57,321 nucleotides of DNA. Source: Verrucomicrobiales bacterium (lineage in GTDB: Bacteria; Verrucomicrobiota; Verrucomicrobiia; Limisphaerales; SXTU01). This document shows, piece by piece, positions 28,906-54,344 of this stretch (its first letter is position 1; every line of letters begins with the position of its first letter). Position numbers and translations under genes: made by a program. Below the pieces are notes generated by a model. It saw nothing but the letters and a program-made list of their open reading frames with translations, was not told the origin of the DNA and did no database searches. The DNA is taken from NCBI GenBank assembly GCA_005791875.1, contig SXTU01000167.1, positions 1 to 57,321 on the forward strand. Direction: 5' to 3'.

Positions 28906-29885
28906 CCAACCGGCGCAAATTCCTCGGCGCGGTCTCAACGGGTGTGAGTTCGCTTGCGTTCAACACTCGCGCCTTGGCCGCTGACCCGCCGCGCAAGGCC
29001 CGCATCGCCATCACGTTGGACTTGGAGATGTCGCGCAACTTCCCGATGTGGGAGCAGTCGCATTGGGATTACGAGAAGGGCAACCTCGACGAGGCGACGA
29101 AGCGATATGCAGTCGAGGTCGCGCGGCGCGTGAAGGCGCTCGGGGGCGTGGTGCACTTCTTCCTCGTGGGTCGCGCGCTGGAGCAGGAGAACGTGGACTG
29201 GTTGGAGCAGCTCATCGCGGACGGTCATCGCATCGGCAACCACACTTACGATCACGTGAACGTGAAGGCGACGAAGCCCGAGGAAATCCAATTCCGCTTC
29301 CAGCGCGCGCCGTGGCTCATCGCGGGGAAGGAGCCGGCGGTGGTCATCCGCGAGAACATCGCGCAATGCACAGCGGCGATGAAGTCGCGGCTGGGCATTG
29401 CACCGAATGGCTTTCGCACACCGGGCGGCTTTGGCAATGGGCTGGCCGACGCGCCGCAGGTCCGGCAGATGTTGCGCGAACTCGGCTTCGCGTGGTGCAG
29501 CAGCAAGTATCCGGCACACACGGCTGCGAAGTCCGGCGAGAAGCCGGATGCTGCGGTGGTCGCGGACATCGTGCGCGCGCAGGCGGAAGCGCAGCCGTTC
29601 CGCTATCCCGGCGGGCTGGTGGAAATCCCGATGAGTCCCATCAGCGACATCGGCGCGTTCCGGACGGGGCGGTGGAAGCTGGAGTGGTTTCAGCGCGTGA
29701 CGCGTGCGGCGGTGGAGCACTGCATCGAGCGCGGGCTGGTCTTCGACTTCCTCGCGCACCCGAGCTGCCTCGGCGTGATGGACCCGGAGTGCCGCACGGT
29801 GGAGATGATTTGCGATCTGGTGGCCAAGCACCGCGAGCGAGCGGAGCTGACGGACTTGGAGACGGTGGCGAGGCAAACACCGTAG
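28902..29885 (+). CDS. Polysaccharide deacetylase family protein, Tat-exported
   Basis: NRRKFL, ITLDLE, GNHTYDH, FRTPGG; ATGA overlap with the upstream gene. Confidence 0.85.
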   Translation: MTNRRKFLGAVSTGVSSLAFNTRALAADPPRKARIAITLDLEMSRNFPMWEQSHWDYEKGNLDEATKRYAVEVARRVKALGGVVHFFLVGRALEQENVDWLEQLIADGHRIGNHTYDHVNVKATKPEEIQFRFQRAPWLIAGKEPAVVIRENIAQCTAAMKSRLGIAPNGFRTPGGFGNGLADAPQVRQMLRELGFAWCSSKYPAHTAAKSGEKPDAAVVADIVRAQAEAQPFRYPGGLVEIPMSPISDIGAFRTGRWKLEWFQRVTRAAVEHCIERGLVFDFLAHPSCLGVMDPECRTVEMICDLVAKHRERAELTDLETVARQTP

Positions 29886-30138
29886 CCGCCGAGGTGAGGA
29901 GGCGGATTCGTCTGAACCTTGAAACGGCAGCTGCCTCACGCAAAGGACGCGAAGGACGCAACGCCGGCGGGTTTTTTCCACAAAGCACCGGGCGGCAGCT
30001 TTCACCCCGCAGGTGAAGTGGTCGTTGCTTCAAAAGTCTTTTCCTTTGCGCCCTTCGCGTCCTTTGCGTGAGGTTCAACTGCGGAATCTAGGATGAAGTG
30101 TCGCAGGGTCCGCCTCGCCTCCTCACCTCGGCGGCTAC
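29882..30138. repeat. Family A GTAG REP doublet with a 9-mer inverted element (29934-30073) nested inside
   Basis: gtagccgccgaggtgaggaggcg ... cgcctcctcacctcggcggctac, perfect 23-bp arms. Confidence 0.85.
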
Positions 30139-48796: not shown

Positions 48797-50014
48797 TCAA
48801 GCCACCTTCCGCTTCGCCATGTTCGCCAGCAGCTTCTCCGCGCAGGCCTTAGCGAACTCTGGCGCGTTGATGACGCAGTCCATCTCCACCAACTCAATGT
48901 CCTTGCGCAGGAATGTTCTCATCGTGGTGAAGAGGATGCGGTCAGCAATAGGGTCGTGAAACTTCTGGCCGGGCGCGCTGATGACGCTGATCGCCTTGCG
49001 CGGCAGGAGCACCGTCACGGGCGCGATTGAAAGGTTGACTTTTTCGGCGAGGATGCGACCCAAGTCGGCGCTTTCCTCGGGCGTCGTGCGCATGAGCGTC
49101 ACCTGCGGGTTGTGCTGGTAGAAGGTGCGGCCTGCGAACTTCGCCGGCACCGTCTCCGGCGCGCCAAAGTTCACCATGTCGAGGCAGCCGGGCGTCACGA
49201 TGGCGGGCACGCCGTGGCGCGCCGCCGCCTCGCAACGCGTCGGGCCAGCCCCGAGCACGCCGCCGACCAGCTCATCCGCCCACTCCGTCGTCGTGATGTC
49301 GAGCACGCCGGCGACGAGGCCGGACTCGATGAGCGACTCCATTGCGCGGCCTCCTGTGCCCGTCGCGTGGAAGACGAGGACTTCGTAGCCGGCGGCCTCG
49401 ATGATCTTCTTCGCGGCCTGCACGCAGTCGGTCGTGTTGCCGAACATGCTCGCGACGACAAGCGGCTTGTCCTCGCCGGGTTGCGGCACGCTCTCGACCA
49501 TGCCGCAGATCGCGCCAGCCGCGCGCGTGAGAATCTGGCGCGAGATGCGGTTGATGCCGGCGACATCCACGACGGCGGGGAACATGACAATGTCCTTCAC
49601 ACCGACGTATTGCGCCGTGTTGCCGGATGCGAGCGTGGAGACCATGACCTTGGGGAAGCCGATGGGCAACGCGCGCATCGCGGCGGTGCCAATCGCCGTG
49701 CCGCCGCCGCCCCCGAGCGAGATCACGCCGTCAATGCGCTGCTCCTCCGCGAGCTTGCTCAACACCATGGGCGCGCCCTTCGACATCGCGGCGACCGCTT
49801 CGCCCCGGTCTTTGCGTGTGAGCAACGCCGCGAGGTCCACGCCGGCCGCCGCAGCGACCTCCAACCGCGTCACGTCGGGCTTGAGCTTGGGCGCGTCGAG
49901 CGTGCCCGTGTCAATGACGAGCACGTGATGGCCGCGTTGCTTGATGAGGTTCGCCACGAAGGCATGTTCTTCGCCCTTCGTGTCCATTGTGCCAAGCACT
50001 GCGATGGTCGCCAT
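48797..50014 (-). CDS. Tm-1-like ATP-binding domain protein (UPF0261)
   Basis: GTMDTKGEE, GGGGGT, GFPKVMVST, SMFGNTT, FHATGTGG, DMVNFG. Confidence 0.92.
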   Translation of the reverse strand: MATIAVLGTMDTKGEEHAFVANLIKQRGHHVLVIDTGTLDAPKLKPDVTRLEVAAAAGVDLAALLTRKDRGEAVAAMSKGAPMVLSKLAEEQRIDGVISLGGGGGTAIGTAAMRALPIGFPKVMVSTLASGNTAQYVGVKDIVMFPAVVDVAGINRISRQILTRAAGAICGMVESVPQPGEDKPLVVASMFGNTTDCVQAAKKIIEAAGYEVLVFHATGTGGRAMESLIESGLVAGVLDITTTEWADELVGGVLGAGPTRCEAAARHGVPAIVTPGCLDMVNFGAPETVPAKFAGRTFYQHNPQVTLMRTTPEESADLGRILAEKVNLSIAPVTVLLPRKAISVISAPGQKFHDPIADRILFTTMRTFLRKDIELVEMDCVINAPEFAKACAEKLLANMAKRKVA

Positions 50015-50102
50015 AGGTGTGGCCGAAGGGTAACGCCTTCCCTTTGGCGCGCGAACTTTTCCTTTCGACCCGCACTTGCTTCCGGCATAACGCCTGCATT
50101 GC

Positions 50103-53100
50103 ATGAAGCCCCAGCGTCTCTCCCTGCTCCTGCTTTTGCTTGCGCTCGCCGCGCCCGCCTCTGCTGCCGAAGCCCCGAAACTCTTCACCGAGGGCGTGCG
50201 CACGGCCGACCCGCTCTCGCCCGAAGAGCAGCGCCTGAAGTTTCACCTCCCCGACGGCTTCAAGATTCAGCTCGTCGCCGCGGAACCAGACCTCCGCAAG
50301 CCGATGAACATGGCCTTCGACTCGGCGGGCCGTCTCTGGGTCACGGAATCGCGCGAATACCCCTTTGCTGCGACCAACGCCGCCCTCGCCCGCGACACCA
50401 TCCGCATCTTCTCGGACTTCGACGACAATGGTCGCGCCCGCAAGGTCACGACCTTCGCCACCAACCTGAACATCCCCATCGGCGTTTACCCCTTCCGTTC
50501 TCCCAGTAGCCGCCGAGGTAAGGAGGCGGACCCGGCGCAGAACAATCCGAACCGCCTCCTCACCTCGGCGGCTACGAATTTGACTTGGAAGTGCATCGCG
50601 TGGTCCATCCCCAACATCTGGCTCTTCGAGGACACGGACGGCGATGGCGTCGCCGACAAGCAGGAGAAGCTCTACGGCCCGTTTGACTTCACCCGCGACA
50701 CGCACGGGAACCAAGCCAGCTTCCGGCGCGGCCTCGACGGCTGGATTTACGCCACCCACGGCTTCAACAACCAATCCCGCGTGTCCGGCACGGACGGCCA
50801 CGAAATCTCCCTCCCCTCCGGCAACGTCTATCGCTTCCGCCTCGACGGCTCGCGCATCGAGCACTGGACCCACGGGCAGGTCAACCCCTTCGGCCTCACC
50901 TTCGACCCGCTGGGGAACCTCTACTCCGCCGACTGCCACAGCTCGCCCATCTACCAACTCCTGCGCGGCGCGCACTACCCGAGCTTCGGCCGCCCGCACG
51001 ACGGCCTCGGCTTCGGCCCCACGACCATCCAGCACACGCACCACAGCACTGCCATCTGCGGCATCACGCACATCAGCGACCCGTCGTGGCCCGCCGAGTT
51101 TCAGGGCAACCTTTTCATCGGCAACGTGATGACCAGCCGCATCAATCGCGACCAACTCGAATGGCGCGGCAGCACCAGCGTGGGGAAAGAGATGCCCGAC
51201 TTCCTCAGCACGGACGACCCGTGGTTCCGCCCCGTGGATTTGCAATTCGGTCCCGACGGCGCGCTGTGGGTGGCGGACTTCTACAACCGCATCATCGGCC
51301 ACTACGAAGTCCCGTTGCTCCACCCCGCCCGCGACCGCGAGCGCGGCCGCATCTGGCGGATAGTTCCCCCCGGAGGAGCCGACGTGCGGAAGCTCAAACT
51401 AGTTCGGGACGAGAAGTCAGAGACTCCTCACGTCCTCCCCTACAGCCGCGACGCCCTGCTCAATGAATTCCTCGGGCAGAACCCGACCCGCCGCGCCCTG
51501 GCCCGCGAGGAACTCGCCCTGCTCCCCAACGCCAACGACCACGGCCTCATCACCCAGGCCGCGCAAGGCCTCTGGCACTTCCGCCAGGCAGACGACCGCG
51601 AGGGCTTGATGACCTCCTGCCTCTGGCTGTTGCAGCGCGACGGCAAGCTCGATGACAAAACCCTGCTCGGCGCGCTGCAAGACCGCGATGAACCCATCCG
51701 CGTCCACGCGCTGCGCATCCTTGCCGAGCGCGGCCTGCGCACCGCCGCCCGCTCCTCCCTTGCCCCCAGCGGGGGAGAGGGCCGGGGTGAGGGGGCACGA
51801 GGCTCTGTCGGCACCGGCCTGCCAACCAACGCCTCTTCTCCCTCGCCCCCAACGGGGGAGAGGGCCGGGGTGAGGAGGCAGGCTGCCGACAACTCGAAAT
51901 CCCCCTCTCCCGCCGTGGCCCCGCCCCCTCACCCTCAATCCCTCTCCCCCGTTGGGGGCGAGGGAGGTCTGCTGGTCGCCGTTCGGGCGGCCCTCGCCGA
52001 CCCGTCCGCCCACGTCCAGCGCGCCGCTGCGGACGCCCTCGCCGCGAACCCGCACGCCGACAACCTCGCCCCGCTCCTCGCCTTGCAGAAACGCGTCCCC
52101 GCCCAGGACACTCACCTCGCCCACGTCGTGCGCCTCGCCCTCCGCGAACAGCTCCGCCTGCCCGGCGCATTCATGAAGCTGTCCGGCGAGACAATCCCGC
52201 TCGCCGACGCCCGCGCCTTCGCCGCCGTCGCCACGAGTCTTACTAACGCCGAGGCCGCCGCATTCCTCGTCCGCCATGTCGAGACCCACAGCGAGCCTGC
52301 TGATGTCCTGGCCCGCTACGTCACACACGCCGCCCGCTACGCGCCGGACGCGGACTTGCCGAAACTGGCCGCGCTGGGCCGCCAGCAGTTTGCCGCCGAC
52401 CTCGACACGCAGGCCACGCTGTTCAAAGCCATGTTCGACGGACAAGCCGCCCGCCGTGCCGGCGACTTCCAGTCGCCGTCCGCACCGTCCAGCACGTCCA
52501 ACGCCCTCCGCCCCGACCTCCTTGCCTGGGGCACGGACCTCGCCAGCCAGCTTCTCGCCCCCGCCGCTAACGCAGCGACCTGGACCTACGTGCCCTTGAA
52601 CCCCGCCCAGCCCGGTCGCAACCCCTTCGCCTTCGAGGAGCGCACCAGCGCCGACGGTCAGAAGACCCGCCTCATGTCCAGCCTCCCGCACGGCGAAACT
52701 TTGACCGGTGTGCTGCGCTCGCCGGTGTTTGTGCTGCCGAAGCAACTCTCTTTCTACCTCTGCGGCCACGACGGCGTCCCGCAACAGCCCGCCGGGAAGA
52801 AAAACTTCGTGCGCCTGCGGCTGGCAACTTCTTCTCCCTCTCCCTCATTGGGGGAGAGGGCCGGGGTGAGGGGGCAGAGCGTGCCTGTGCCGAAGAACAC
52901 ACCCTCACCAACGCCTCCGCCGCCCCCTCACCCTCAATCCCTCTCGCTCACTGGGGACGAGGGAGGTCAGAGCGGTCGCGTCCTCCGCGAGGCCTTCCCG
53001 CCGCTTAACGACACCGCCCGCCTCGTCACATGGGACCTCGCCGAGTTCGCCGGCCAGCGCGGAATCCTCGAAGTCACCGACGGCGACAACGGCGATGCCT

Positions 53101-54125
53101 ATGCCTGGCTGGCCTTCGGGCGGTTCGACCCGGCGCTGCCCGAGCTGGCCTTGAACGACACGCAGGGGATCGCCGCCCGGCAGCAGGCCGGCGCGGACCT
53201 CGCGCGGTCGCTCGGGGTCGCGTCGCTGGAGCCTGCCGTGGCGAAGCTGTTCGTCGAGACGAAGGACACGCCCGTGCGCGCCGCCGCCGGGCGCGCGTGG
53301 TTCGCGCTGAACGCCCCCGCCGCGATGCCGCAGCTCGCCGCGCTCGTGCGCGATGCCGCGCAGCCCGAGCCCTTGCGCGGCGAACTCGCGGCGCAACTCG
53401 CCGAGTCTGCGGACGCGCGCGGCCTCGCCGTGGTCGTGTCCGCGCTGACGAATGCGCCGACGCGCTTGCAGCGCCGCTTCGCCACCGCGCTCGCCAGCAC
53501 AGCGCCGGGAACCGAGCAGCTTCTCGCCGCAGCAGAGGCGGGTCGCGTCCCGGCGCGGATCTTGCAGGACCGCACCTTGACAGACCGTCTCCGCGCCAGC
53601 TCCGCGCGCGATGCGAGGGTGCGCTTGGCCGCGCTAGTGAAGAACCTTCCTCCTGCCGACGCGCAGTTGCAGAAGTTGATTGAAGCCAAGCGCAACAACT
53701 TCGATGCGAAGCAGGCCAGCGCCGTGCGCGGGGTGGAAGTTTTCACGAAGGCGTGCGCGCTGTGCCATCAACTGGAGGGCAAGGGCGCGCTCGTGGGGCC
53801 GCAGCTCGACGGCATCGGCGGGCGCGGCGTGGAACGGCTGCTCGAAGACATCCTCGACCCGAACCGCAACGTGGACACGGCGTTCCGCGCGACGGTCTTT
53901 GTGCTCCGGGACGGCGAGAGCGTGAGCGGCCTCTTCCGCCGCGAGGAAGGCGCGACGCTCGTGTATGCGCTGGCGAACGGCCAGGAGGCCCGCGTGCCCA
54001 AGGCGGACGTGAAGGAACGCCGCGAGACGGAGACATCGTTGATGCCGTCGAATTTCCACGAGGCGCTCACGGCGGTGGAGCTCAATGATTTGCTGGCGTT
54101 CCTGCTGGGCAAGACGGGGAAGTGA
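50103..54125 (+). CDS. PVC-type heme-binding CxxCH protein (propeller + HEAT + cytochrome c)
   Basis: LPDGFKIQLVAAEP, DTDGDGVAD, FRPVD...GPDGAL, RGRIWR, CALCH, GPQLDG, SLMP. Confidence 0.92.
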   Translation: MKPQRLSLLLLLLALAAPASAAEAPKLFTEGVRTADPLSPEEQRLKFHLPDGFKIQLVAAEPDLRKPMNMAFDSAGRLWVTESREYPFAATNAALARDTIRIFSDFDDNGRARKVTTFATNLNIPIGVYPFRSPSSRRGKEADPAQNNPNRLLTSAATNLTWKCIAWSIPNIWLFEDTDGDGVADKQEKLYGPFDFTRDTHGNQASFRRGLDGWIYATHGFNNQSRVSGTDGHEISLPSGNVYRFRLDGSRIEHWTHGQVNPFGLTFDPLGNLYSADCHSSPIYQLLRGAHYPSFGRPHDGLGFGPTTIQHTHHSTAICGITHISDPSWPAEFQGNLFIGNVMTSRINRDQLEWRGSTSVGKEMPDFLSTDDPWFRPVDLQFGPDGALWVADFYNRIIGHYEVPLLHPARDRERGRIWRIVPPGGADVRKLKLVRDEKSETPHVLPYSRDALLNEFLGQNPTRRALAREELALLPNANDHGLITQAAQGLWHFRQADDREGLMTSCLWLLQRDGKLDDKTLLGALQDRDEPIRVHALRILAERGLRTAARSSLAPSGGEGRGEGARGSVGTGLPTNASSPSPPTGERAGVRRQAADNSKSPSPAVAPPPHPQSLSPVGGEGGLLVAVRAALADPSAHVQRAAADALAANPHADNLAPLLALQKRVPAQDTHLAHVVRLALREQLRLPGAFMKLSGETIPLADARAFAAVATSLTNAEAAAFLVRHVETHSEPADVLARYVTHAARYAPDADLPKLAALGRQQFAADLDTQATLFKAMFDGQAARRAGDFQSPSAPSSTSNALRPDLLAWGTDLASQLLAPAANAATWTYVPLNPAQPGRNPFAFEERTSADGQKTRLMSSLPHGETLTGVLRSPVFVLPKQLSFYLCGHDGVPQQPAGKKNFVRLRLATSSPSPSLGERAGVRGQSVPVPKNTPSPTPPPPPHPQSLSLTGDEGGQSGRVLREAFPPLNDTARLVTWDLAEFAGQRGILEVTDGDNGDAYAWLAFGRFDPALPELALNDTQGIAARQQAGADLARSLGVASLEPAVAKLFVETKDTPVRAAAGRAWFALNAPAAMPQLAALVRDAAQPEPLRGELAAQLAESADARGLAVVVSALTNAPTRLQRRFATALASTAPGTEQLLAAAEAGRVPARILQDRTLTDRLRASSARDARVRLAALVKNLPPADAQLQKLIEAKRNNFDAKQASAVRGVEVFTKACALCHQLEGKGALVGPQLDGIGGRGVERLLEDILDPNRNVDTAFRATVFVLRDGESVSGLFRREEGATLVYALANGQEARVPKADVKERRETETSLMPSNFHEALTAVELNDLLAFLLGKTGK
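50506..50575. repeat. Family A GTAG REP doublet in frame
   Basis: gtagccgccgaggtaaggaggcgg ... ccgcctcctcacctcggcggctac; arms near-identical to 29882-30138. Confidence 0.9.
51372..51443. repeat. Family A REP doublet (72 bp) in frame
   Basis: ggaggagccgacgtgcggaagctc ... gagactcctcacgtcctcccctac; similar to 19623-19714. Confidence 0.75.
51752..51967. repeat. Hairpin elements of the ggggagagggccggggtgaggg family, in frame
   Basis: Two left arms and one right arm encoding about 72 aa (SSLAPSGGEGRGEG...PPPHPQSLSPVGGEGG). Confidence 0.85.
52829..52966. repeat. Second in-frame copy of the same hairpin element
   Basis: Encodes SSPSPSLGERAGVRG...PPPHPQSLSLTGDEGG, in the same frame as 51833-51967. 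Confidence 0.85.
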
Positions 54126-54140
54126 GCAAGCAGCCCGACT

Positions 54141-54344
54141 TCACGACGCGGTGGCACGCTCTCCTTCTCTCTTCCTCGGAGGAGGGGAGAAGGTGGCCGC
54201 AGGCCGGATGAGGGGTGAGGCCGCCAGCGCCGACGCACGTAACCCCTCACCCCAACCCTCTCCCCTCCTCCGAGGAAGGGAGAGGGAGAAGGTGCGCATC
54301 GTGGTCTCGGCTGCTTTACGAAGTCTCATTCCGGAATCGCATCA
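54141..54344. mobile_element. 240-bp element, copy 3, left end missing
   Basis: Core 54161-54290 nearly identical to 918-1042; right end gaatcgcatca contains the BatA gene stop. Confidence 0.75.

What the first reader, a model, noticed from the sequence alone, without database searches (positions are those of the whole stretch)
50103..54125. One intact gene carries about five in-frame palindromic-element insertions from three families
Seen: the CxxCH gene contains REP doublets at 50506-50575 and 51372-51443, hairpin elements at 51752-51967 and 52829-52966, and a cggcgac-ttcca-gtcgccg hairpin at 52460-52478. Together they add very roughly 170 residues without a stop. The 50506 arms are almost identical to the intergenic element at 29882-30138, and the TAG of its GTAG falls out of frame. 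Known: REPs and REPINs are typically extragenic, and coding insertions are best known from Rickettsia palindromic elements. Inference: this lineage repeatedly recruits several selfish repeat families into protein loops, which would be a multi-family source of new peptide sequence. Removal at the RNA or protein level is an untested alternative.
Basis: partly seen in the sequence, partly recalled or inferred. Interest (0 to 1): 0.88.

Follow-up and report, generated by a model that had tools for sequence, protein, structure and literature searches.

The report
Mobile palindromic repeats inside one gene
An intact, selectively constrained gene of a freshwater Verrucomicrobiota bacterium really does carry five in-frame insertions of selfish palindromic repeats in its surface loops, but such passenger insertions were already described in this phylum and the added peptides look neutral.

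Summary
The 1340-aa ORF (50103-54125, +) is a PVC-type heme-binding CxxCH protein: a PQQ-dehydrogenase-like propeller, a HEAT solenoid, a beta domain and cytochrome c. It carries:
- a near-perfect GTAG REPIN (50506-50575);
- a decayed REPIN (51377-51443);
- one and a half copies of a roughly 140-nt MITE-like element (51749-51967);
- one whole copy of that element (52828-52968);
- a 42-nt REP hairpin unit (52455-52496).

Each family has tens to hundreds of copies in the genome, mostly outside genes. Against 71 family representatives, every segment of 14 aa or more that is specific to this protein is one of these elements (167 aa in total). In the AlphaFold model they fall in the only low-confidence stretches, between secondary-structure elements.

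Congeners lack, share or replace the inserts at the same loops. One loop holds different REPIN subfamilies in sister species.

The backbone is under purifying selection (dN/dS 0.15). Element spacers drift about neutrally (0.72). Element arms stay at the family consensus (dS 0.16 against 0.62), which is conservation at the DNA level, not the protein level.

My best reading is tolerated passenger insertions in permissive loops with ongoing turnover, not recruitment. Intragenic GTAG REPs, including multi-family and double inserts, were reported for the verrucomicrobium Opitutus terrae in 2013. This is therefore a striking new member of a known kind. Translation of the inserts is untested.

The parts
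50103..54125 (+). Host gene: a PVC-type heme-binding CxxCH protein of 1340 aa. It has a signal peptide, a six-bladed sGDH-like propeller (DUF7133), a HEAT/ARM solenoid, a beta domain, a second solenoid and a C-terminal cytochrome c domain.
   Evidence: ORF. Pfam DUF7133 (E 1e-73, two stretches) plus Cytochrom_C. NCBIfam TIGR02604 at 214 bits and TIGR02603 at 109 bits. AF2 model pLDDT 83.7, pTM 0.84. Foldseek finds PQQ glucose dehydrogenases and karyopherins. dN/dS is 0.15 against the G015 orthologue.
50506..50575 (+). E1: a GTAG-type REPIN doublet of subfamily B1, 70 nt long (24-nt arms and a 22-nt spacer). It encodes about SSRRGKEADPAQNNPNRLLTSAAT in a propeller loop.
   Evidence: Inverted repeat I6. 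The arm is an exact match to the family consensus, which has 11 exact 24-mers in G000. Family listing. Fold. The segment is specific to this protein, aa 134-162. pLDDT is 61-63 in model blocks 121-140.
51377..51443 (+). E2: a decayed REPIN doublet of the B2-like subfamily, in the linker between the propeller and the first helix.
   Evidence: The left arm is an intact GTAG REP in G004, G010 and G016. By my own count on the sequences, 17 of 24 arm positions are complementary in the window. Fold z = -2.1. The right arm has 30 relatives in the genome.
51749..51967 (+). E3: a solo arm plus spacer of family A (51749-51832, 84 nt) followed by a whole family-A element (arms 51832-51880 and 51921-51967). 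It lies between two HEAT helices.
   Evidence: Repeats D1-D3 and I5. G015 has only the whole element, and G004 has a decayed copy. Specific to this protein, aa 554-626. pLDDT is below 50 in model residues 528-595.
52455..52496 (+). E5: a 42-nt unit of REP family C (CGTGCCGGCGACTTCCAGTCGCCGTC...), 14 aa long, between two solenoid helices.
   Evidence: A precise 14-codon gap in the other orthologues. Only the window and G004 have the insert. 72 of 75 homologues have the short loop. Family listing. pLDDT is below 50 at model residues 771-776.
52828..52968 (+). E4: one whole family-A MITE-like element of 141 nt (47 aa), in a loop of the beta domain.
   Evidence: Repeats D2 and D3. A 47-codon gap in G004, G011, G013 and the outgroups, and the same element in G015. 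63 of 73 homologues have a loop of 5-6 residues here. pLDDT is below 50 at model residues 892-935.
54163..54288 (.). Downstream intergenic 126-nt palindromic element (family D). This is context, not part of the gene.
   Evidence: Inverted repeat I1. There are 61 copies, and 0 of 61 lie deep inside a called gene. Copies are 93-97% alike.
29882..30138 (.). Intergenic pair of family-B arms with a long spacer.
   Evidence: Arms at 29882-29905 (+) and 30115-30138 (-), with 1-2 mismatches to the E1 arm. Stops in all six frames.

Best explanation
These are passenger insertions of non-autonomous palindromic mobile repeats: GTAG REP/REPINs, a second REP hairpin family and a MITE-like element of about 140 nt. 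They landed inside a functional gene and survived for three reasons. (a) Each added a multiple of three bases. (b) Each is read in a stop-free frame. (c) Each fell in a surface loop or inter-domain linker that already varies in length across the protein family. The inserts are most likely translated as disordered, Pro/Gly/Ser-rich excursions that the fold tolerates.

After insertion the spacers drift neutrally. The arms stay close to the genomic family consensus, which I infer reflects gene conversion from the many genomic copies, or repeated replacement or re-insertion. The same loops are re-used across the genus, with gains, losses, expansions and a subfamily swap.

Shown: presence of the elements, family membership, mostly extragenic distribution, indel boundaries, loop location, and selection on the backbone. 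Inferred: the transposition mechanism (a RAYT-type Y1 transposase for the GTAG REPs), translation of the inserts, and the force that keeps the arms uniform.
For: Family membership and distribution
- All five segments belong to multi-copy families.
- The families are depleted inside genes. Copies lying deep in a called gene: A 19 of 96, B 10 of 60, C 21 of 82, D 0 of 61, against 1730 of 3000 random points.

Comparison with relatives
- Against 71 representatives, the segments specific to this protein are aa 134-162, 554-626, 789-802 and 909-955, plus one 6-aa stretch that is not a repeat.
- Across 80 homologues the E5 loop has 7 residues in 72 of 75 and the E4 loop has 5-6 residues in 63 of 73.

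Structure
- The AF2 segments with pLDDT below 50 are model residues 422-425, 528-595, 771-776 and 892-935 (and 1-4). They correspond to E2, E3, E5 and E4. All lie between secondary-structure elements.

Selection
- Backbone dN/dS is 0.15 (1109 codons). Spacers give 0.72 (26 codons). Arms have dS 0.157 against 0.62 for the backbone (62 codons; binomial P = 2e-5).
- In-gene arms match the family consensus at 40-41 of 43 positions, equal to the median of 90 genomic copies. The G004 copy has decayed to 30 of 43.

Same-site turnover
- The E1 site holds B1 arms in the window and B2 arms in G015 and G011, starting at the identical nucleotide.

Why in-frame survival is plausible
- The elements are intrinsically open: E1 in 4 of 6 frames and E5 in 6 of 6.

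A candidate transposase and generality
- A Y1_Tnp gene is present at 85 bits.
- Other genes with bona fide Pfam domains, which lie on both sides of the copy in four of the six examined, carry in-frame copies.

Assembly support
- Independent contigs bridge E1, E2 and E5.
Against: - No direct evidence that the inserts are transcribed through or translated. The one RNA run holds only a 591-nt contig of a relative (97% alike) that covers no insert.
- Low pLDDT in the inserts is partly forced, because the alignment has no rows there.
- My gene calls are a home-made codon-score caller on stop-to-stop ORFs, so the inside/outside counts are approximate.
- The Y1 transposase found is flanked by GTAG hairpins of another sequence, not family B. 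No transposase was linked to families A or C.
- Conservation of the arms at synonymous sites is not what a purely neutral passenger predicts and needs an extra process.
- The selection estimates for arms and spacers rest on 62 and 26 codons from a single species pair.
Confidence: 0.82

Rival explanations
1. The hairpins work at the DNA or RNA level inside the coding region. Very stable stem-loops would pause ribosomes between domains to aid co-translational folding or export, tune mRNA decay, or remain substrates of the REP transposase. On this reading selection on the palindrome, not on the peptide, keeps the arms intact.
For: - Arm dS is 0.157 against 0.62 in the backbone, with dN/dS 0.59, so both kinds of site are slowed.
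- Hairpins of -52.6, -98.4 and -79.6 kcal/mol have z-scores of -8.8, -8.1 and -5.1.
- The inserts lie at domain or repeat boundaries.
- The G004 copy of E5 keeps the stem through a paired change, GGCGAC/GTCGCC to GGCGAT/ATCGCC.
Against: - Orthologues under the same backbone constraint do without the inserts or carry unrelated sequence at the same loops.
- The G004 copy of E3 has decayed to 30 of 43.
- The stem variant seen in G004 also exists among genomic copies, so it may come from conversion.
- Gene conversion from hundreds of copies explains arm uniformity without any function.
Confidence: 0.1
2. Exaptation: the lineage recruits repeat-encoded peptides as useful new loops or linkers, so the inserts are kept for what they encode.
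For: - The inserts are retained in frame in a gene under purifying selection.
- E3 and E4 are shared with G015 across a backbone dS of about 0.6.
- Many multi-domain exported proteins of the genome carry such copies.
Against: - Spacer dN/dS is 0.72.
- Arms are conserved at synonymous sites as well.
- Presence and absence are scattered on the backbone tree: E4 needs at least 5 state changes among 12 rows.
- The segments are predicted to be unstructured.
- Different, unrelated elements occupy the same loop in congeners.
Confidence: 0.05
3. Artefact: the metagenome-assembled contig is mis-joined at repeats, or the ORF is a decaying pseudogene that happens to stay open.
For: - The genome is a 314-contig MAG and many contigs end in family-A repeats.
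- Logan unitigs break inside the E3 and E4 arms.
Against: - G015 carries E3 and E4, and G004 carries E5, at the same codons in independent assemblies.
- Contigs of runs X1, X3 and X4 bridge E1, E2 and E5 with 0 differences. The short unitigs 51771-51863 and 51846-51947 tile E3 as in the window.
- Backbone dN/dS is 0.15, and the CxxCH motif and family invariants are intact.
Confidence: 0.02
4. The inserts are removed before the mature protein forms, as introns, by translational bypassing, or as inteins.
For: None found.
Against: - No Pfam match other than DUF7133 and two cytochrome c families, so no intein or Hint family.
- No Rfam family anywhere in the window at gathering thresholds.
- The inserts are 42-219 nt of REP or MITE sequence without intron-like features.
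- All lengths are multiples of three and read in stop-free frames, which removal would not require.
Confidence: 0.01

Closest known systems
Intragenic GTAG/CGTC REPs, highest in Opitutus terrae (Verrucomicrobia): Di Nocera, De Gregorio and Rocco 2013, BMC Genomics 14:522 (PMC3733652; passages read)
   Same: GTAG-tagged palindromes in the PVC superphylum. Several REP families co-exist in one genome. Dimers inside ORFs encode 20-30 aa, and some genes carry two inserts. Different REPs sit at about the same site in the Xanthomonas recB genes. The authors also suggest neutrality in linkers and loops.
   Different: Here one gene carries five inserts from at least three families, including a MITE-like element of about 140 nt. 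The order differs (relatives are titled Limisphaerales or Pedosphaera). The present analysis adds orthologue-resolved boundaries, a structure map, selection estimates and a same-nucleotide subfamily swap. Their list of decorated genes (Additional file 3) could not be seen.
Rickettsia palindromic elements (RPE): Ogata et al. 2000 and 2002, as summarised in the MITE review PMC10969869 and in PMC3184786 (passages read; the original papers were not read)
   Same: Palindromic repeats of about 100-150 bp inserted in frame into unrelated genes, said to be compatible with the fold of the host proteins.
   Different: No sequence relation was tested. The host is free-living and GC-rich, not an obligate intracellular alphaproteobacterium. 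Here most copies are extragenic, whereas nearly half of the RPEs lie in ORFs.
REPIN-RAYT systems: Bertels and Rainey 2011 (PMC3116915) and later papers (search listing and abstracts only)
   Same: Inverted REP doublets with a short spacer. There are tens to hundreds of copies, subfamilies with co-varying stems, and a Y1 transposase gene in the genome.
   Different: The only strong Y1_Tnp gene found is flanked by other GTAG hairpins. REPINs are described as extragenic, whereas here some lie in frame within genes.
In-frame MITE fusions (BRE, ERIC, BOX/RUP, Anabaena MITEs): Delihas 2011 (PMC3184786; passages read)
   Same: Small repeats with open frames fused internally to protein genes. About 9 genes carry internal BRE inserts.
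   Different: Different element families and hosts. No target-site duplication or parent IS could be shown for family A here.

Membership tests
GTAG-type REP / REPIN | Short palindromic unit carrying a terminal GTAG | tested here: met
   E1 arms are GTAGCCGCCGAGGTAAGGAGGCGG and its inverted copy. E2's left arm is an intact GTAG unit in three orthologues.
GTAG-type REP / REPIN | High copy number, mostly extragenic, often just after stop codons | tested here: met
   80 hits at up to 2 mismatches against 0 for the reversed control. 40 of 60 copies lie outside called genes, against 484 of 3000 random points.
GTAG-type REP / REPIN | Inverted doublets with a short spacer | tested here: met
   Most listed copies pair head to head, 43-70 nt apart start to start.
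GTAG-type REP / REPIN | A cognate RAYT (Y1 transposase) flanked by the same REPs | tested here: inconclusive
   PF01797 matches at C232 (85 bits) and C79 (32 bits). The flanking hairpins are GTAGCCGTGGGT... and GGGGACACTCTTGTCCCC, not family B. The genome is 90.7% complete.
MITE (family A, E3/E4) | Terminal inverted repeats around a short non-coding core, in many copies | tested here: met
   Arms of about 45 nt are inverted around a spacer of about 45 nt. 245 core hits in G000.
MITE (family A, E3/E4) | Target-site duplication and a parent IS with matching ends | tested here: inconclusive
   The empty sites in orthologues are too diverged to read a duplication. A parent IS was not searched for.
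Rickettsia palindromic elements | Sequence membership in an RPE family | not tested
   No RPE sequence was available from a tool. The resemblance is in behaviour only.
Intein or intron | Hint/intein domain, or a group I/II intron RNA family | tested here: not met
   The Pfam scan lists only DUF7133 and cytochrome c families. Rfam gives 0 matches in the window.
PVC-type heme-binding CxxCH protein (host gene) | TIGR02604 N-terminal region and TIGR02603 heme-binding domain, both above their cut-offs | tested here: met
   214 bits (cut-off 122) and 109 bits (cut-off 68). CALCH lies at aa 1218.

The most novel reading that the evidence does not exclude
Copies inside coding regions may not be dead passengers but live members of the repeat populations. 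On this reading, particular protein loops act as long-lived landing pads where REPINs and MITE-like elements are repeatedly replaced or converted. One loop then hosts different subfamilies in sister species, the arms stay at consensus while the flanking gene diverges to dS of about 0.6, and alleles may move between species by recombination. A stronger form is that the very stable hairpins at domain boundaries are kept because they pace translation.
Probability: 0.28. Interest if true: 0.6.

Novelty: new member of a known kind. Interest (0 to 1): 0.42.

Why it matters
This gene shows how far a functional bacterial protein can absorb selfish DNA. About 12% of its length (167 of 1340 aa) is repeat-encoded, and the gene is still under purifying selection.

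It offers a natural map of permissive insertion sites in a widespread but uncharacterised PVC protein family.

It also gives a tractable case for asking whether REPIN or MITE copies inside genes are maintained by conversion or re-insertion. The evidence pointing that way is arm conservation at synonymous sites and the same-site subfamily swap.

For annotation, it warns that length outliers in these families come from repeats, not from new domains.

Tried and rejected
1. RNA evidence. One metatranscriptome run (X24) was laid. It gave only a 591-nt contig at 50724-51314 (18 differences, 2 gaps, depth 3) from a relative, plus pieces of about 40 nt on repeat arms. No insert junction is covered, so it says nothing on whether the inserts are retained.

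2. Joints listed as 'opposite strands' or 'skips' were considered as signs of inversion or excision. I rejected this. Their sides are 20-35 nt, they lie in multi-copy, self-palindromic arms, and they carry foreign letters between the two sides.

3. Rfam gave no family at gathering thresholds over the whole window.

4. The PDB sequence search named only the cytochrome c domain and weak designed-repeat hits.

5. I first read the difference between the window and G015 at E1 as compensatory evolution of one copy. I dropped this after searches showed that both arm types are co-existing subfamilies. Exact 22-mers in G000: B1 41, B3 10, B2 36.

6. Treating E2 as an insertion specific to this lineage was rejected. 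It is genus-wide and was not flagged.

7. Target-site duplications could not be read.

8. The Poisson figure for five copies in one gene (expected 0.056, P = 4e-9) assumes that all genes are equally permissive. It is only indicative.

9. G000 and G004 share E5 but are not sisters on the backbone tree (AU p = 0.005). I could not decide between independent insertion, loss, and a recombination tract. The shared flanks favour recombination.

Paper supplements were closed, so Additional file 3 of PMC3733652, which may list homologous decorated genes, was not seen.

Full report
What is there. The window holds one open frame at 50103-54125 (+) of 1340 aa. Its only stop is the terminal one, and a single CALCH motif lies at aa 1218. 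Pfam finds DUF7133 in two stretches and a C-terminal cytochrome c domain. NCBIfam names it a PVC-type heme-binding CxxCH protein: TIGR02604 at 214 bits and TIGR02603 at 109 bits, both above their cut-offs. An AlphaFold2 model of aa 21-1200, built on 72 aligned rows, has mean pLDDT 83.7 and pTM 0.84. Its N-terminal propeller resembles soluble PQQ glucose or aldose dehydrogenases, and its helical parts resemble karyopherin-like solenoids. Relatives carry titles such as Limisphaerales, Pedosphaera sp. and Verrucomicrobiota MAGs. The window is contig C111 of a 314-contig, 4.72-Mb, 64.9% GC assembly that is 90.7% complete.

The repeats are real. The repeat finder recovers four things:
- the E1 doublet, with arms 50506-50529 and 50552-50575, 96% complementary;
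- the three family-A arms of E3;
- the E4 element;
- the relation of both E3 and E4 to a downstream intergenic element.

As RNA, E1, the E3 pair and E4 fold at -52.6, -98.4 and -79.6 kcal/mol, with z-scores of -8.8, -8.1 and -5.1. E2 and E5 are weaker, at z = -2.1 and -2.5. All five segments have relatives across the genome. Pattern searches allowing up to two mismatches give these counts in G000, with zero hits for the reversed controls:
- 80 for the E1 arm;
- 104 for the related B2 arm;
- 245 for the family-A core.

The repeat families.
- Family B is a textbook GTAG REPIN, with 24-nt arms head to head around a spacer that is about 20-25 nt in most listed copies, though some are much longer.
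- Family C is a REP of about 27 nt, CGTGCCGGCGACTT[GC]CAGTCGCCGTC. It has co-varying stem variants, and copies are often inverted doublets placed right after stop codons.
- Family A has arms of about 45 nt, each with its own small hairpin, inverted around a spacer of about 45 nt.

The genome encodes a Y1 (IS200/RAYT-type) transposase at 85 bits. Its flanking GTAG hairpins have a different sequence from family B.

Inside versus outside genes. I called genes with a home-made codon-score caller on stop-to-stop ORFs (3352 calls covering 87% of the genome). With these calls, copies lying deep in a gene with coding-like flanks were:
- family A: 19 of 96;
- family B: 10 of 60;
- family C: 21 of 82;
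- family D: 0 of 61;
- the E2-type arm: 7 of 30;
- random points: 1730 of 3000.

The families therefore avoid genes, but not completely. Forty-three called genes hold at least one such copy, and this gene leads with five. I looked at six of the others. All have bona fide Pfam domains, and in four of them (C253, C125, C222, C213) the domains lie on both sides of the copy. They are a DEAD helicase with DUF3516, two DUF7133-HEAT-cytochrome paralogues, a PSCyt2-PSD1 protein, an MBOAT protein and a UDPGP-like protein.

Orthologues. The protein matched 34 of 41 related genomes, including all 19 congeners. I aligned twenty fetched orthologues and later 80 titled homologues.
- E5 is a precise 14-codon insert beginning exactly at the REP consensus. 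Only the window and G004 have it, and 72 of 75 homologues have a 7-residue loop there.
- E4 is a 47-codon insert shared with G015. 63 of 73 homologues have 5-6 residues there. Four congeners instead carry repeat-rich inserts of 196 to 462 residues at the same point.
- E3 is one whole element in G015. The window has the same element plus an extra 84-nt arm-and-spacer. G004 has a decayed copy.
- E2 is a decayed REPIN shared through the genus, and its left arm is still an intact GTAG unit in G004, G010 and G016.
- The E1 loop is short in distant relatives (4 residues in 18 of 80, and 14-15 in 28 of 80) and is variable in every congener.

Against 71 representatives at 36-61% identity, the segments specific to this protein are aa 134-162, 554-626, 789-802 and 909-955, plus one 6-aa stretch that is not a repeat. 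Together they make 167 aa. The median length of the other proteins is 1179 aa.

Structure map. Apart from the first four residues, the model's stretches with pLDDT below 50 are residues 422-425, 528-595, 771-776 and 892-935. With +20 for gene numbering, these correspond to E2, E3, E5 and E4. E1 falls in blocks with pLDDT 61-63. Each lies between secondary-structure elements:
- E1 between propeller strands;
- E2 in the propeller-to-solenoid linker;
- E3 and E5 between helices;
- E4 between strands of the beta domain.

Low confidence inside the inserts is partly forced by the lack of aligned rows. The placement between structural elements is the informative part.

Selection. Against the G015 orthologue:
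- the backbone (1109 codons) has dN 0.092, dS 0.62 and dN/dS 0.15, so the gene is functional;
- the family-A spacers (26 codons) have dN/dS 0.72, about neutral;
- the arms (62 codons) have dS 0.157, four times lower than the backbone (binomial P = 2e-5), with dN/dS 0.59.

The arms are therefore held at the DNA level, not as peptide. The in-gene left arms match the consensus of 90 genomic copies at 40-41 of 43 positions, which is the genomic median. The G015 arms match at 39 and 41. The G004 copy is down to 30. G004 also has the fewest family-A cores, 58, against 245 in G000 and 449 in G015.

Same-site turnover. At E1 the window has B1 arms, while G015 and G011 have B2 arms (GTAGCAGCCGACGTGAGGAGGC) starting at the identical nucleotide. 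The element is 70 nt in the window and 91 nt in those two, a difference of 21 nt. Both arm types co-exist as subfamilies: exact 22-mers in G000 number 41 for B1, 10 for an intermediate and 36 for B2 (for the other genomes). Other congeners carry a different palindrome built of GGTCAGC-type repeats, an AATCGG microsatellite, or Pro-rich low-complexity sequence in the same loop. On a backbone tree the E4 states need at least five changes among 12 rows and E5 needs two. A G000+G004 clade is rejected (AU p = 0.005). Yet the flanks of E5 are shared by these two genomes, which points to a local recombination tract.

Assembly. Contigs from public runs tile the region. One X1 contig bridges E1 with no differences. 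Contigs of X1, X3 and X4 bridge E2. An X3 contig (51922-52875) bridges E5. Short unitigs tile E3 in the order seen in the window. X1 may be the source sample. X3 and X4 belong to the same study and carry a strain that differs just upstream of E1. Independent assemblies of G015 and G004 share the inserts.

Why in-frame survival is plausible. The elements are GC-rich and largely free of stops: E1 is open in 4 of 6 frames, E5 in 6 of 6, E3 in 3 of 6 and E4 in 2 of 6. The measured net lengths are 42, 84 and 141 nt.

Comparison with what is known. Di Nocera et al. 2013 (PMC3733652, passages read) report:
- GTAG REPs in the PVC superphylum;
- several co-existing families in Opitutus terrae;
- genes with two inserts;
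- REP-encoded stretches of 20-30 aa, and up to 43-82 aa in clusters;
- different REPs at about the same recB site in two Xanthomonas species.

They also suggest that such inserts are neutral in linkers or loops. Reviews describe RPEs and other in-frame MITE fusions. The kind is therefore known. This case adds an extreme example, with five inserts from at least three families making up about 12% of the protein. It also adds orthologue-resolved boundaries, a structure map, and two observations that a simple neutral passenger does not predict: arm conservation at synonymous sites and the same-nucleotide subfamily swap.

Verdict. This is a new member of a known kind of moderate interest, and whether the inserts are translated remains to be shown.

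Noticed in passing
L023, L026, L027, L028 (orthologues in G019, G010, G008, G003), at the site equal to window 52828-52968: Four congeners carry repeat-rich in-frame inserts of 196 to 462 residues at the E4 loop. These include GEGWGEGE-type arm peptides and tandem DDSTRRE-like repeats, and the ORFs stay open (1438-1540 aa).
   Followed up: partly
window 54163-54288 and 60 other places in G000: A 126-nt palindromic element (family D), with copies 93-97% alike, was never found deep inside a called gene (0 of 61). This contrasts with families A, B and C.
   Followed up: partly
G000 contig C232:7743-8087 (locus L041) and C79:2237-2467 (L042): Two Y1 transposase genes. The first encodes 148 aa (85 bits) and is flanked by GTAGCCGTGGGT-type hairpins. 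The second is flanked by GGGGACACTCTTGTCCCC hairpins, which look like a further repeat family.
   Followed up: partly
window 50411-50554, runs X3 and X4: A co-occurring strain differs at 15-16 positions just upstream of E1, and its contigs break inside the E1 spacer. This suggests strain-level variation in the REPIN spacer.
   Followed up: no
window 52430-52540, compared with L025 (G004): Besides the 42-nt insert, about 20 nt on the left and 40 nt on the right are shared by G000 and G004 and differ from all other congeners. This looks like a small recombination tract.
   Followed up: partly
loci L043, L044, L046, L054, L055, L073, L075 and others: Several public MAG records that hold clear orthologues of this Verrucomicrobiota gene are titled Klebsiella sp., Akkermansia muciniphila, Proteobacteria bacterium or Chitinophaga pinensis. 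The titles look wrong.
   Followed up: no
window 49112-51323, both strands: Shadow ORFs of 465-470 aa overlap the real genes in this GC-rich DNA. ORF length alone is a poor guide to genes here.
   Followed up: no
many G000 and G011 contig ends (for example positions 5-25 and 64-84 of contigs): Many contigs begin or end in the family-A core, so the assembly breaks at these repeats and copy numbers are underestimates.
   Followed up: no
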